Shown here piece after piece: positions 1 to 18,000 of a stretch of DNA of 64,000 bases. The DNA comes from Styela clava (taxonomy: Eukaryota), in contig NC_135256.1 of NCBI RefSeq assembly GCF_964204865.1, forward strand, positions 9,734,001-9,798,000, given 5' to 3'. Positions within the stretch are counted from its first letter, which is position 1, and each line of letters opens with the position of its first letter. Position numbers: made by a program.

Positions 1-3000
1 GAAGATATGAAGGTGAATGGAAGAATGGAATTGAATTAAATGGAGAGTATATTTTCAGTGATGGACTACAATATGATCCAGAAGATTGGTCTTATTGTAG
101 TGAAAACAACGACAGAAGATTTTATCCGGTAAACAATCAGTACATAGAAAGAAAGATGAATAATTTCACGTCTATAGAGTTCAGTTTGGTTTAAAAACTG
201 TACGTTGCTTGTCGGTGCCATTGAGATGGCTAGTTGAAGTTGAAGTTGACAAAAACAGAAGTAGCAGAAGCTCGGAAATTGGCGATTGATTAAATATACC
301 CAATATCAACAGTAATTCAGCTAACGCTATTGACATAGAATTCGCTCTCGTAGCTTCTTATCTAGCTATATATATTCAAAAGTATGCCACAAAAATTCAC
401 AGAAAAAAAATATAGTCAGCACGGAAAAATATTGTGTGATCAATCGGTATTATCTTTGCTATTACCAGTCAACGTTCATGTGGTTACAACACTACAACCT
501 CTCTCAAATACCCAAAATTGTGAGATTCCTTCGTAACTTTTTTTACAATTTTCTCTTTTGTAGGAGCATATCAACGGACTTAAACCATCAGATCGCTGTC
601 TCATGAGTGCACAAAGTGACAGCTTATCGGGAAAACCACTTCGCTATATACCCGATGGTTGCTATGATGCCGGTGATGGAATTTACGACCCATCCAGTAG
701 AGTATTATATCAATACGGAAAAAATGAAAAGGAACCTCTTGGAGCTTTTCTACGTAATGTCACGGACGAAGAACATTATTGGATTGTATCCCATTGTAGA
801 AAAGGTTGGGATGAATTTATCGGATTTCAAAAATCAACAGAAGAATGATACTTTTATATTATGTTATGCAATAGTGTGGATTTACAACAAATATAGTTTC
901 TCCGTATATTTTTCACTTCGAGAATATTACAGTGTTTGATCGAGCGTTTTAAATTTTCACTCTAATAATAGAACTTTCGTAATTAGATTTGGAAGAACTT
1001 ATCTCGATCACAAAACAGTAAACTTCACTTCATATTATATATGTGCGCATCCTTGTAACGTAAGTGTCACCCTTATCCAGTGATGGGACTTAAATTTTTT
1101 GTCAGCCGGTTTCATCACAAAAGTCATATTTTTCAGCCGGTTCTGTTGCAAAAAGTCATTGACAGTAACCAGTAATGCTGACCGGTTCGCTGATCTCATA
1201 AAATTCCGTGAGACGGTTCTATAGAACCGGTGCGAACCGGCTGAATCAAACCACTGCGTTTATCTAGAAGTACAGAAACGTTATCTCTCTGCCATTGTGT
1301 TGTGTTAGTACGCTGACCACCGGAAGCCGTATTATGCTGGTCATTCTTATCACCTTAAATTTATTTTTTATTTTTCGGCCATCGTTGAGAAAAGGAACAA
1401 TATAATATACTTCTTATGCTTTTGTATTTTGTCGTATAATTATAACCCGAATATATTACAAGAAGAACAACGTTCTTCCTCAAGCGCCGATCCTGCTTTA
1501 CATTTCACTCTGAAGCTTTGTCCATTCAGAATACATTTTCGTTTTCGTATTTTTCTACATGTGAAGTTTCTGCCGTACGAACATCGTGACCAACTTCCCC
1601 AGTTTTCCCATGAACCGCACTGGTAATTACATTCACGATTTTGCTCTAAATCGTCAACGTTGCAAGGAGGGACGATACATACTCGTGAGCGGTATGTCAT
1701 AGTTCCACAAGGATTGCAATCGTCCGACCAAGGACCCCAGTTGCCAAATTTCTCCACACATTTAATATCATCATTGCATGATCTTACTTTTTCTTTATTT
1801 CCTTTGCAAGAATCTTCTGATGGGAAGCATATCCTCTCTGCTTTTTGCGTTCCGCCGACACACGTTGAGCTACATTGTCCCCACGGTGACCATTCTGACC
1901 AAATTGGACACTGTTGTGAGTTGCAAATCACTACATCCTCCAGAGACAAGGAACATTGAGAATTATCTGAACTCATACAGTTTCGGTGTCTTCGTTTCAG
2001 TCCACCACCGCAGGTTTTGGAACATTGGGACCAAAATGTCCATTGTGTGTAATAATGAGCATCCCCGGATTTTGCTTCTAGTATTTCTGATTTTGACAAG
2101 TAGCACAAATTAATATCACAACATCCCTTCATACTTCCTTTCAATGGTTTCAACCAGTAAAGAGAACTCGGGACAGCATTAGTATATGGACAGTCAGATG
2201 GACGCTGAATGGATGTAGTTTTTGGCTTGCAAGGTCGTCCACCTTGAGTCATAAATGCTGGCCCACACCATTCAAAGTCTGCACCGTTGAAAAGATTAGC
2301 TAAATTAGGAACTGGAATGCTGTGGAAATTGCCCATGTTCAAGGGATTTTCAGTATTTGATGCCAAGGTCAATATATTAGTGTTAGGAACTGGTGGGAAA
2401 ACAGGCTGAGCTTCAATATTGTTTGAAAACATGCCCAGATTGTTTATTGCACTTGAAAATATTGTTCCTAAATTACCAAAACCAATGTTTAATTCTGTTG
2501 GAATGTATTCAAAAATGTTGTCCGCTCTGGTTTTTCCTTCTTGAACGCTGAGCCACAAATGCCAATGCTGGGATGCGTTCAGGGTCTTTCCATATTCGAA
2601 CATAAGGTTGTAATATGAGTCAACAACTTGTGGATCCACCTTACATCCAGCTTTTAGACAATAGTGCATACTTTTCAATATTTCTCGTGGCCCTCTATCA
2701 CTGAATATCTGGCATCGCGGGCGACCGTGAGGCATTGTAGTAAATGGACGCTCAAGCTCGGTCTCTCCGGATTTTATAGTAACCGAATCATCTACTGGAT
2801 AGAAACAACCAAGACCGTAACGCCAGCATCCACCAATCAGTGAACAGTATTTCGGTGTGATATCTGAAAAAATAAACAACTTTATCATCTCAAATCAATT
2901 TAAGTTTAGACAAAGAAGATACGAAATTAAATAGGGATGAGGTCTGCTTACTTCGACATTATCTACACGCCAACAATCTGACTTACTTTTCCAGCCTGCC

Positions 3001-15000: not shown

Positions 15001-18000
15001 GAAATGTTTCATTATATTGTTTTTCTCTTAGCAAATTCGTTTTATTTTCATGGGTGCGAATATAACCACGCTTTTCGATGCCAAGATCATTCATACCGAT
15101 ATTTTTATTTTACCAGATCCGTATCCTGGATTTCCACGATTACCCGCGTTTGTATGCCACAAGAGACCTAGATTCCCAGATAACTGTGATATGGAAGACA
15201 AAAAGGCTTTGAGATACACCAGGAATCCTCCGCTAAATATTCCCTACTGTATCAGGTAGAGGGAGCTTTAGCAACAAATGTTATCCTCTCAGTATTATTG
15301 CAATTAAGACTTGTATAACATTCTGAATGACCATTGACAAGTCTGTTTTCATTGTGGTTGTTAAAGTCAAAAATGCAATGGGGGTAAAATTGGTGATTTA
15401 TCTATATTTTTCGGTAAATAAAAGTTCCACTCATTATATTAAACATTGAAGTTAGTCGAAAGGTATTAAAGACCGGTGTTTGCCACTCATATGGACCGAA
15501 CGAGTATGTTAAATGATTTAGCATATATATGTGTATAAGTACAAATAAAACATCATACGAGCATCCCCGAAGGTAAATATTTTTCCGTTTTTTTTCATCT
15601 TCAGAATCCCTTGTGATCCGGATCTTCCTGAACTTGATGAAAGCAGGACGAAGTGCAGGGAAATGCCAGGATGTTTTTTTGATGTTCAACTGAGAGATTA
15701 TAGAAAAAAGTTTGGTCACAGCGTAATGGCGGGTGTCCCGGTATGCCAACTTGCAATAAGAAACAAAGTTTTTCTTGAAGAAGCGAGAAAAGTTAAAGAT
15801 AAGGTATATCAAATTTTCAGATCATAATGTTTTCAAACTGAGACATTTTCACTCGTTCGTGAACAACTGAATATTTTAATTCCGGAACTCAATCATATTT
15901 CTATTGCATTTTATTCAGACTGGAGAATGGACCCCTTATTTGAATGAATGTCTCCTTGATACCTTTGACGAAATTATTAGAACTAACCACGAAGGATGCA
16001 AGACATTAGAGATGTTAGAATATTTTAAGCATAAACCAAAAATTGCAGGATGGAAAGGTTTGTGTGTTGGAATATTAACATTGGCATTTTAAGTAAGACT
16101 CAAAACTATGTTAAACGGTGTGTGCCCAATGTAATGCCAGAGAGAGAGAGAGAGAGATTTATTGTCACAAACTGGGTCAACACTTGGGACAATTTGAAAT
16201 TTTGAAAGGTCATATGTCACATAGCACTATATACGGAACGACATCGCTGTTTCTGTCAAATTCAAAAATTGTGGAATGAGAGAGGGAATTAGGGAAAGAG
16301 AAAAAATGCCCAATCATACTAAATACATATGGCCATGTAATTCTCAAGCCTCGTGTTCTGATCTACACTGTATATCATTATTCGGACTTTGGTTCTATAT
16401 GTTCTCTTTTTAGCCACGTCATATAGTCTAAATCTAGGTAATAACAGTTAATACTATTTTAACTTCAAAACAGAATAATATTATTATTCCGAACAGGTAT
16501 AAAAGAATACGATTGTTATCTAATTGCCGGATGTTGGATGACAAAGAAATGCTATTATCCCGTTGATGTCAACAACGTAACAGTGAGCGCATCTCCGACG
16601 GAACACGACGATAAAATACCGAGTGCACTTTATTATGGTCGACCACCTTGTCAGAAATTCGACGATAAAAATGCAAAATCAGCAATTGAAAGTTATCACT
16701 CTTGCCTGGTGTCCGGCTGTAAACTGGATAAACATGCACAAAACTCTTATTATAACTATCTTTTTGATTTTGGGAAGTCGATGGATCCATCTGATCATTG
16801 GGTATTTTGGCGATTGGTGGAAAGTGGGAAATATGGTGCTCATAACTTAGATGAATATAATCTTCTACCAAAGCATGATGTTACAGTGACTCCTTTTTCT
16901 CTCGTTTTCAATTACCCGGCAAAACCAGGCGAATCAAATCTAATTGACGAATTACTACGTCCCGGATCTTCATCGCTTCTGGACATGATAAAAACTGGAA
17001 GTGGCCTGCAAGTACCACCAGCACATCAAAATATCAGAGATAGATTTTTGGAGGATTTGCAAGGCATTCAAACTCCTTGCTCGACCACATTTACGTCGTT
17101 TGGGGCAAGACCTTGTGGCCCGCCAAGATATAAACCAACGGGAGTGCCAAATCATTGTCCCTATCGCCCAATTGAGGATAAGGATTTGAAGCCGCTAAGA
17201 GGAAGTTTCGAAGGCTGTTGCGATATAACGTTATGCTATCATCCGAAAGAAGAAATTCCTAACGCCAGATCAGGCGCTGCCACATATTATTCAACATGGA
17301 GTTACTGGACTGAATGTTCAGCAACATGTGGCAAAGGGAATAAAAAACGATGGCGTCGTTGCATCGGCATGGATCAATCCCAATGCACGGGTAGAACGAC
17401 AGAGAATGAGTCTTGTGAAATAGTTCCATGCAGCTCTTGGAACAAATGGAGCAGGTGGAGTAAATGCTCGTTAACATGTAATAGCGGTGTCAGTACAAGA
17501 ACTAGGACTTGTAAACCCATAGGAGGGTTCTGTCCAGGACCCGATGAAGAAATTGAATCATGCAATAGTGAAAAGTGCAAAATTGATCGTTTATTCGGAC
17601 CATGGTCCGAGTGGAAAGGAAGTTGTAATCCTTGTGGTAAGAGCATTTATAGAAGTCGGGAGTGCGAGGCTACTACTTGCAACGATGACGACCTCTATGA
17701 AATTCAACAGTGCCCGACTGGGTGTGGAACTTGGTCTTCATGGAGCCCTTTTGGTCCATGTACTTGGGATTTTTTCTTCAGAACTTGTCAAAAGACTAGA
17801 ACTCGAGTCTGTAATGGTAAAAATGGAAGGCCTACAGAGTGCCAGGGTAATAGTGTAGATGTTGCTTATTGTATTTGTTAATATATAATAAAATACGAGA
17901 TGAAAATTATTACTTGTTACTTTTATCCCGAATATGTACTACTATATATATTCACTTTTGAAATGTTATATTCATTACATATTTACCTTTTTGTCGTGAT

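What the first reader, a model, noticed from the sequence alone, without database searches (positions are those of the whole stretch)
1440..17881. Head-to-head pair of ancient paralogs encoding an unfamiliar secreted trefoil-like plus TSP1 architecture
Two divergently transcribed genes (ATGs 3.9 kb apart) share 7 coding exons, identical intron phases (1,1,1,2,0,1) and an identical 199-nt exon 5. They align throughout (PYC.RIPC, PGC.FD, GVPVC..AIRN.VF, AGWK, GRP.CQ.F, LKPL.GS..GCCDI.LCY, A.SG.A.YY..W) yet are strongly diverged. Architecture: signal peptide, several Cys modules resembling trefoil/P-domains, a Pro/Asn-rich variable linker, then four TSP1 repeats; no TM segment or catalytic domain is evident. 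Inference: co-regulated, possibly heterodimeric components of mucus, adhesive, tunic or gamete coat. I do not recognise a named family.
Basis: partly seen in the sequence, partly recalled or inferred. Interest (0 to 1): 0.7.

Follow-up and report, generated by a model that had tools for sequence, protein, structure and literature searches.

The report
Diverged head-to-head pair of secreted TSR genes
Two neighbouring genes pointing away from each other are old duplicates encoding secreted, cysteine-rich proteins that end in thrombospondin-type repeats; the front two-thirds match no catalogued protein family, so their role is unknown but probably extracellular binding.

Summary
Gene A (minus strand, 6298 to 1440) and gene B (plus strand, 10191 to 17881) are divergent paralogs with ATGs 3893 bp apart. 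All 12 introns are GT..AG, the phases are 1,1,1,2,0,1 in both genes, and exon 5 is 199 nt in both. Identity is 261 of 693 aligned residues, and 48 of 51 cysteines align. Synonymous sites are saturated, so the duplication is old. Exon 3 is the weak point: the two copies show no significant similarity, and exons 2 and 4 are phase-compatible without it.

Each protein has a signal-like N-terminus and no other hydrophobic segment. About 500 residues with 27 cysteines follow, then four six-cysteine modules. Two of the four are canonical TSP1 repeats, the fourth is a divergent one, and the third is weak.

"Trefoil-like" is not demonstrated. Pfam and PDB searches gave no trefoil hit. A language-model search gave only a weak lead.

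Co-regulation and heterodimer formation are untested. My verdict is an ordinary-looking, lineage-restricted secreted TSR protein pair of modest interest.

The parts
6223..6298 (-). Gene A exon 1: ATG at 6298, hydrophobic signal-like segment, first Cys, donor in phase 1
   Evidence: 19-residue hydropathy 1.96
5716..5841 (-). Gene A exon 2: five-Cys module (order C..C..CC..C; with the exon-1 Cys, C-C-C-CC-C)
   Evidence: 0 of 2000 shuffles reach the score
5126..5236 (-). Gene A exon 3 (unverified): charged, Cys-free, phase 1 to 1
   Evidence: no significant similarity to B; codon score reached by 12% of null segments
4675..4792 (-). Gene A exon 4: Pro-rich, three Cys, ends in PYC
3632..3830 (-). 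Gene A exon 5, 199 nt: best-conserved N-terminal module (IPC, PGC-FD, GVPVC, AIRN-VF)
2987..3128 (-). Gene A exon 6: two Cys, ends in AGWK
1440..2863 (-). Gene A exon 7: Cys-rich and helix-predicted part (2505-2861), variable linker (2268-2504), six-Cys module with CC (2076-2267), four TSR-type modules (1443-2051), TAA at 1440-1442
1443..2051 (-). Gene A TSR block: TSR1 1905-2051 and TSR2 1755-1904 (canonical), TSR3 1614-1754 (weak), TSR4 1443-1613 (divergent)
6299..10190 (.). Intergenic region between the two ATGs (3892 nt): no ORF over about 100 aa, no CpG peak, no residual inverted DNA similarity
10191..10278 (+). Gene B exon 1: ATG at 10191, hydrophobic signal-like segment, first Cys, donor in phase 1
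   Evidence: hydropathy 2.16
13537..13653 (+). Gene B exon 2: five-Cys module
14673..14819 (+). Gene B exon 3 (no similarity to A's, but codon usage is coding-like)
   Evidence: 0 of 3000 null segments reach its score
15117..15255 (+). Gene B exon 4
15605..15803 (+). Gene B exon 5, 199 nt
15919..16057 (+). Gene B exon 6
16497..17881 (+). Gene B exon 7: N-part 16499-16858, linker 16859-17077, six-Cys module 17078-17263, TSR1 17288-17434, TSR2 17435-17584, TSR3 17585-17728, TSR4 17729-17878, TAA at 17879-17881

Best explanation
An old inverted duplication left two intact, divergently oriented genes. Each encodes a secreted, heavily disulfide-bonded glycoprotein of about 730 residues and belongs to the thrombospondin type-1 repeat (TSR) superfamily.

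Shown: the gene structure, the paralogy, conservation of the cysteine framework, a signal-like N-terminus with no membrane anchor, and two canonical plus one divergent TSR at the C-terminus.

Inferred: the proteins act outside the cell as binding or scaffold proteins, not as enzymes. The TSR stack would attach to sulfated glycans, matrix proteins or scavenger-type receptors, as TSRs do in thrombospondin-1, properdin and F-spondin. The uncatalogued N-terminal cysteine-rich region would supply a second binding specificity. TSR1 and TSR2 of both proteins carry W-x-x-W and C-x-x-[ST]-C-x-x-G, the recalled consensus sites for C-mannosylation and for O-fucosylation by POFUT2. This predicts folding control in the ER.

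Each protein has 27 cysteines ahead of the TSRs, an odd number. One cysteine may therefore be free or form an inter-chain bond, so a covalent homo- or heterodimer is possible but not shown.
For: Gene models:
- 12 of 12 introns are GT..AG, with equal phases and equal exon-5 length.

Paralogy:
- E=6e-91 for the last exon.
- Five collinear exon hits.
- No third copy in the window.

Selection on structure:
- 48 of 51 Cys and 12 of 15 (A) or 14 (B) last-exon Trp align, against 33% identity at the remaining columns.

Age:
- Third-base identity at identical four-fold codons is 16 of 70 (0.229), against 0.274 expected at random.

Secretion:
- Hydropathy is 1.96 and 2.16 in exon 1 and at most 1.13 elsewhere.

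TSRs:
- PF00090 scores 55.6 and 67.5 bits against a cut-off of 21.6, with two stretches each.
- The nearest solved relatives are thrombospondin-1 (7yyk_A, E=3e-15), properdin, F-spondin, semaphorin-5A and UNC5B.
- TSR4 against TSR2 gives hhalign 93.8%, E=1.7e-7.

No enzyme or other family in any exon.
Against: - No transcript evidence is available, so the models are ab initio.
- Exon 3 is unverified.
- The signal peptide was judged by hydropathy and by eye, not by a dedicated predictor.
- TSR3 is only weakly TSR-like: hhalign 4.8-8.7%, and Pfam hits are sub-threshold.
- Both AlphaFold runs were unusable (pLDDT 33.4 and 47.3), so no fold is known for any part.
- Function is inferred only from family knowledge of TSRs.
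- The odd cysteine count could equally mean a free thiol, or could change if exon models are wrong.
Confidence: 0.65

Rival explanations
1. The N-terminal modules are degenerate trefoil (P-type) lectin-like domains. The two proteins are co-expressed from a shared control region and form a heterodimer that cross-links mucus, adhesive, tunic or gamete-coat glycans.
For: - The two nearest ESM Atlas clusters for exon 5 are Trefoil clusters (PF00088 on 98% and 100% of members), at scores 0.80 and 0.76.
- Read by eye: two modules (exon 1+2, and last-exon residues 199-253) have the cysteine order C-C-C-CC-C.
- Also by eye: exon 5 and the exon 6/7 module carry G-C-aromatic and V-P-x-C or C-[FY]-Y-P motifs. 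These recall the trefoil motifs GCC-[FW]-D and VPWC-[FY] (recalled, not from a call).
- The odd cysteine count (27) is the same in both proteins.
- The genes are head to head.
Against: - PF00088 was hit by 0 of 10 exon pieces at E<=10 and 0 of 6 ORF pieces at E<=0.1.
- No trefoil chain appeared in five PDB profile searches at E<=10.
- The modules are not detectably related to each other.
- Cysteine spacings differ from the trefoil spacing, and the residue after CC is E, I or D rather than aromatic.
- The Atlas tool states that scores of 0.8 occur a third of the time with shuffled proteins, and the recognition value (2170) is below its 2300 mark.
- The 3.9 kb intergenic region has no CpG peak.
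Confidence: 0.15
2. Soluble innate-immune recognition proteins. The TSR stack and cysteine-rich head bind microbial or symbiont surfaces, as properdin and some invertebrate TSR proteins do, and the duplication reflects diversification of recognition.
For: - Properdin is among the closest solved TSR relatives (9u62_P E=6.7e-11, 1w0r_A E=1.4e-10).
- The sub-threshold Pfam hits of TSR4 are to the properdin-type TSP1_CFP_C model (E=0.018 to 0.36).
- Strong divergence between paralogs, with a fast-changing linker.
Against: - Thrombospondin-1 matches better than properdin.
- The TSP1_CFP_C hits are below the family cut-off.
- Nothing in the window links the pair to immunity genes.
- No expression data are available.
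Confidence: 0.12
3. One or both copies are decaying or mis-modelled, and the seven-exon open frames are partly accidental.
For: - No transcript evidence is available.
- Exons 1 and 3 lack significant similarity.
- Exon 3 of A has a weak codon score.
- Intron 1 of B is 3258 nt and holds a repeat-flanked insert.
Against: - Both frames are open across about 2200 nt, with canonical splice sites at 12 of 12 introns.
- 48 of 51 Cys are conserved despite saturated synonymous sites, which requires long purifying selection on both copies.
Confidence: 0.05

Closest known systems
Thrombospondin-1 type 1 repeats (TSR2-3; PDB 7yyk, 1lsl, 3r6b)
   Same: TSR1 and TSR2 of both proteins match at E=3e-15 to 1.4e-10. 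They share the W-x-x-W ladder, six cysteines and the C-x-x-[ST]-C-x-x-G site.
   Different: None of the other thrombospondin parts is detected: laminin-G-like N-domain, coiled coil, VWC, EGF, type 3 repeats or the C-terminal domain. The TSRs lie at the C-terminal end rather than mid-protein.
Properdin
   Same: A secreted protein built largely of tandem TSRs, and among the best solved matches. TSR4 gives sub-threshold hits to the properdin-type C-terminal TSR model.
   Different: Properdin is almost entirely TSRs. Here about 500 N-terminal residues with 27 cysteines precede only four TSR-type modules.
Trefoil factor / P-domain proteins (PF00088)
   Same: Small secreted cysteine modules. Two modules here share the C-C-C-CC-C order, some short motifs look alike by eye, and there is a weak language-model lead for exon 5.
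   Different: There is no HMM or PDB sequence match. Spacings differ, the CC doublet is absent from the best-conserved module (exon 5), and I know of no trefoil protein carrying TSRs. Five literature searches listed none (listings only).
Other 'cysteine-rich head plus TSR' secreted proteins (R-spondins, F-spondin/mindin, CCN proteins)
   Same: The general plan of signal peptide, cysteine-rich region and TSR(s), with an extracellular binding role.
   Different: Their defining head domains (furin-like repeats, reeler/spondin, IGFBP/VWC/CT knot) gave no Pfam hit in any exon. The TSR number and position also differ.

Membership tests
TSR superfamily (Pfam TSP_1, PF00090) | Match to the family HMM above the curated cut-off | tested here: met
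   A scores 55.6 bits and B 67.5 bits against a cut-off of 21.6, with two stretches in each.
TSR superfamily (Pfam TSP_1, PF00090) | Six cysteines plus a W-x-x-W tryptophan ladder in each repeat | tested here: met
   All four modules of both proteins have six Cys and at least one W-x-x-W. TSR3 has a shortened C-x-x-C in place of C-x-x-[ST]-C.
TSR superfamily (Pfam TSP_1, PF00090) | All four C-terminal modules are homologous TSRs | tested here: inconclusive
   T1-T2 97.8%, T2-T4 93.8%, T1-T4 67.7%, but T3 only 4.8-8.7% (12 controls at most 0.9%); only sub-threshold Pfam hits for TSR3 and TSR4.
TSR superfamily (Pfam TSP_1, PF00090) | Three-stranded layered TSR fold | tested here: inconclusive
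   the AlphaFold model of the last exon has pLDDT 33.4 and cannot be used.
Trefoil / P-domain (PF00088) | Match to the family HMM | tested here: not met
   no PF00088 hit in 0 of 10 exon pieces at E<=10. Caveat: three modules are split by introns and were searched exon by exon only.
Trefoil / P-domain (PF00088) | Sequence relation to solved trefoil structures | tested here: not met
   five profile searches at E<=10 gave 0, 1, 4, 0 and 0 hits, none a trefoil protein.
Trefoil / P-domain (PF00088) | Six cysteines in the order C-C-C-CC-C with trefoil spacing and an aromatic residue after CC (recalled definition) | tested here: inconclusive
   Read. The order is met in two modules. The spacing is not met, and the residue after CC is E, I or D. 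Exon 5 has no CC.
Trefoil / P-domain (PF00088) | Three-loop trefoil fold | tested here: inconclusive
   the exon-5 model has pLDDT 47.3; the fold search gave 11 matches, all at E>=4.1, and none was a trefoil.
Thrombospondins proper | EGF repeats, type 3 calcium-binding repeats and the thrombospondin C-terminal domain | tested here: not met
   no such Pfam families in any exon.
Bidirectionally promoted (co-regulated) gene pair | Short shared promoter and correlated expression | not testable with these tools
   The ATGs are 3893 bp apart. CpG observed/expected is flat at about 1.0 across the spacer. No expression data are available.

The most novel reading that the evidence does not exclude
A previously undescribed secreted protein family in which degenerate trefoil-like glycan-binding modules are fused to a C-terminal TSR stack. 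A conserved unpaired cysteine links the two paralogs into a covalent heterodimer that cross-links a mucus, adhesive or egg-coat matrix.
Probability: 0.1. Interest if true: 0.55.

Novelty: new variant of a known kind. Interest (0 to 1): 0.3.

Why it matters
TSR proteins are a large and well-known class of extracellular binding proteins, and invertebrate genomes hold many lineage-specific ones (established knowledge). One more pair is therefore not surprising.

The possibly new element is the N-terminal region of about 500 residues and 27 cysteines. Its cysteine framework has been kept under long purifying selection in two deeply diverged copies, yet it matches nothing in Pfam-A or among solved structures. 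If orthologs exist widely, it would define a new extracellular domain or domains. If the trefoil lead held, it would be an unreported combination of trefoil-like modules with TSRs.

Tried and rejected
- Structure prediction of the last exon: pLDDT 33.4, unusable.
- Structure prediction of exon 5: pLDDT 47.3. Its fold search gave only E>=4.1 matches, which are meaningless.
- ESM Atlas on the last exon's N-terminal 262 residues: no usable hit.
- Pfam at E<=10 on ten exon pieces: only sub-threshold chance-level hits. These were Toxin_23 (17.5 bits against a cut-off of 22.2), COX5B, HU-CCDC81, and TSP edges. BURP appeared at E=0.024.
- PDB profile searches: nothing relevant.
- Internal-repeat test among the N-terminal modules: 21 pairs, best probability 1.6%, so they are not shown to be repeats of one unit.
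- Search for the best exon-3 pair among 8 x 25 phase-compatible candidates: top score 22, no better than the chosen pair's 19, and none convincing.
- DNA-level remnants of the inverted duplication: none.
- Two short non-collinear BLAST hits of 12 and 17 residues (E=7e-4 and 0.002): treated as chance.
- Literature: I saw only listings with titles and abstract openings and read no paper. None described a trefoil-plus-TSR architecture. The search 'P-type trefoil' plus 'thrombospondin type' found 0 papers.

Not run:
- Complex prediction, because I do not claim binding and the monomers do not fold.
- The genome-contig scan, because that collection holds only bacteria and archaea.
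Full report
What is there

The window has no N. The two longest open frames in the first 18 kb are mirror images of each other: 1440-2894 on the minus strand (484 aa) and 16463-17881 on the plus strand (472 aa). They align over 480 residues at 35% identity, E=6e-91.

I compared all stop-to-stop frames of the minus strand of 1400-10500 with those of the plus strand of 8500-17900. 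At E<0.02 this gave seven hits. Five are collinear, with E=9e-101, 2e-19, 4e-12, 2e-7 and 0.004. Two are short non-collinear hits of 12 and 17 residues, which I treat as chance. A tblastn of ten of these pieces against the whole window found only each piece itself and, for eight of the ten, its partner. The window therefore holds no third copy.

Gene models

I read the splice sites from the sequence and checked them by script.

- Gene A (minus): exons 6298-6223, 5841-5716, 5236-5126, 4792-4675, 3830-3632, 3128-2987, 2863-1440.
- Gene B (plus): exons 10191-10278, 13537-13653, 14673-14819, 15117-15255, 15605-15803, 15919-16057, 16497-17881.

All 12 introns are GT..AG. The phases are 1,1,1,2,0,1 in both genes, exon 5 is 199 nt in both, and both end in TAA. 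The coding lengths are 2196 and 2214 nt, giving 731 and 737 codons before the stop. The ATGs are 3893 bp apart. 'Identical exon 5' holds for length only; the peptides are 41% identical.

How solid each exon is

Exons 2, 4, 5, 6 and 7 are supported by similarity. For exons 2 and 4, 0 of 2000 shuffles reached the observed score.

Exon 1 has no significant similarity (845 of 2000 shuffles). In both genes, however, it starts with ATG, is the only strongly hydrophobic stretch (19-residue hydropathy 1.96 and 2.16, against at most 1.13 elsewhere), ends in phase 1, and gives the same C-x5-D spacing across the junction, as read.

Exon 3 is the weak point. The two copies are not significantly similar (870 of 2000 shuffles). 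There are 8 and 25 other phase-compatible candidates in the two introns, and no pair scores better than 22. Exon 2 could also splice directly to exon 4 in phase. Codon usage supports exon 3 of B (0 of 3000 stop-free intronic segments reach its score) but only weakly supports exon 3 of A (12% reach it). The count of seven coding exons is therefore six verified plus one plausible.

Age and selection

Over the seven exon-wise alignments, 261 of 693 aligned residues are identical (37.7%). Of 51 cysteines in each protein, 48 align, and identity at the other columns is 33.0%. In the last exon, 12 tryptophans align out of 15 (A) and 14 (B).

At codons for identical residues in four-fold families, the third base agrees in 16 of 70 cases (0.229). 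Composition alone predicts 0.274, so synonymous sites are saturated. No DNA-level inverted similarity remains between the two loci. Both copies have therefore been kept under purifying selection for a long time after an old inverted duplication.

Architecture

After the signal-like segment come about 500 residues with 27 cysteines, distributed as 1, 5, 0, 3, 4 and 2 in exons 1-6 and 12 in the last exon. None of the split codons encodes Cys (and by eye). The region includes a poorly conserved linker, which is Asn/Pro-rich in A (N 15 and P 8 of 79) but not in B (L 11, P 8, N 4 of 73).

Four six-cysteine modules follow.
- Pfam TSP_1 is matched well above threshold, with two stretches per protein.
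- The closest solved relatives are thrombospondin-1 TSRs (7yyk_A, E=3e-15; 1lsl_A, 4.3e-11), properdin, F-spondin, semaphorin-5A, BAI1-derived vasculostatin and UNC5B. In all, 21 sequences matched at E<=0.01.
- The third and fourth modules give only sub-threshold Pfam hits.
- Profile-profile comparison ties the fourth module to the first two (67.7% and 93.8%). It leaves the third weak at 4.8-8.7%, E about 0.004-0.008, against 12 controls at E>=0.064.
- TSR1 and TSR2 of both proteins carry W-x-x-W and C-x-x-[ST]-C-x-x-G. From recalled literature, these are the consensus sites for C-mannosylation and for POFUT2 O-fucosylation.

There is no hydrophobic C-terminal tail or internal hydrophobic segment, so I infer a soluble secreted protein.

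The trefoil question

This lowers sensitivity for the three modules that cross exon boundaries (exon 1/2, 4/5 and 6/7).

Within that limit:
- PF00088 was hit by 0 of 10 exon pieces at E<=10.
- Five PDB profile searches at E<=10 returned no trefoil protein.
- The N-terminal modules are not detectably similar to each other (21 pairs, best 1.6%).
- Both structure predictions failed, because only the two paralogs were available as an alignment (pLDDT 33.4 and 47.3).
- The fold search on the exon-5 model was accordingly meaningless.

For exon 5, the two nearest ESM Atlas clusters are Trefoil clusters at 0.80 and 0.76. The tool itself says such scores occur a third of the time with shuffled proteins, and the recognition value is below its mark.

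By eye, two modules have the trefoil cysteine order C-C-C-CC-C, and some short motifs resemble recalled trefoil motifs. The spacings differ, however, and the best-conserved module lacks the CC doublet. I put the chance that any of these modules is a true P-domain derivative at roughly one in three, and I do not file the proteins under that family.

Function

Nothing here tests function. The best-supported mechanism comes from what TSRs do in characterised proteins: a secreted binding or scaffold protein whose TSR stack attaches to sulfated glycans, matrix or scavenger-type receptors, and whose cysteine-rich head provides a second specificity.

The odd number of pre-TSR cysteines (27) is the same in both paralogs. 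That leaves room for one inter-chain disulfide, so a homo- or heterodimer is possible. This is inference only. I did not run the complex predictor, because I make no binding claim and the monomers do not fold.

Co-regulation is not implied by the layout. The spacer is 3.9 kb and has flat CpG content (observed/expected 1.01, against 0.88 for the window).

Source and context

Neighbouring frames match LRWD1-type WD domain, Cupin_8/JmjC, HSP90 and KH domains. Together with spliceosomal introns and a CpG observed/expected of 0.88, this suggests an invertebrate animal genome. Vertebrate genomes are strongly CpG-depleted (recalled). I do not take the contig for human. The organism was not identified.

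What stayed unchecked

I therefore could not look for orthologs, test conserved head-to-head synteny, or build a deep alignment for folding. Whether this family is already annotated elsewhere is unknown. No paper was read beyond search listings, and no supplementary files were consulted.

Verdict

The trefoil, heterodimer and co-regulation ideas remain open leads. It is best filed as a new variant within the well-known TSR class, of modest interest.

Noticed in passing
window 10659-10785 and 13132-13278 (intron 1 of gene B); also 62228-62330: Three inverted-repeat pairs (30-37 nt, 81-90% complementary) bracket about 2.4-2.5 kb inside the 3258-nt first intron of gene B. A related stretch of about 90-100 nt (77-85% identity) lies at 62228-62330. 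It looks like a short terminal-inverted-repeat element and would explain why this intron is so much longer than A's (381 nt)..
   Followed up: partly
window 3-194 and 564-848 (+): Two open frames upstream of gene A's 3' end look by eye like the end of a MORN-repeat protein, lying tail to tail with gene A. Pfam gave no hit at E<=0.001.
   Followed up: partly
window 23402-24634 (+): A single 410-aa open frame matches the LRWD1 WD domain (PF23215, E=6.8e-53). It appears intron-free over the whole domain.
   Followed up: partly
window 25388-26425 (+): A single 345-aa open frame with a Cupin_8/JmjC domain (E=1.5e-42).
   Followed up: partly
window 37945-38361 and 42366-42803 (+): Exons of an HSP90-family gene (HATPase_c_3 E=3.8e-8; HSP90 E=1.7e-30). 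By eye it resembles the ER form (GRP94), which was not tested.
   Followed up: partly
window 51911-59872 (+): Open frames of a KH-domain gene (KH_1 E=2.2e-13 at 59483-59872). By eye it is vigilin-like, which was not tested.
   Followed up: no
window 19908-20195 (-) and 20650-21021 (+): A PHD-finger-like frame (sub-threshold, E=2e-4) sits next to a 123-aa frame with no Pfam match. Together they may be remains of a mobile element.
   Followed up: no
window 16141-16157 (intron 6 of gene B): A short (GA)n microsatellite.
   Followed up: no
whole window: CpG observed/expected is 0.88 at 35% G+C, so there is little CpG depletion. This fits an invertebrate genome better than a vertebrate one.
   Followed up: partly
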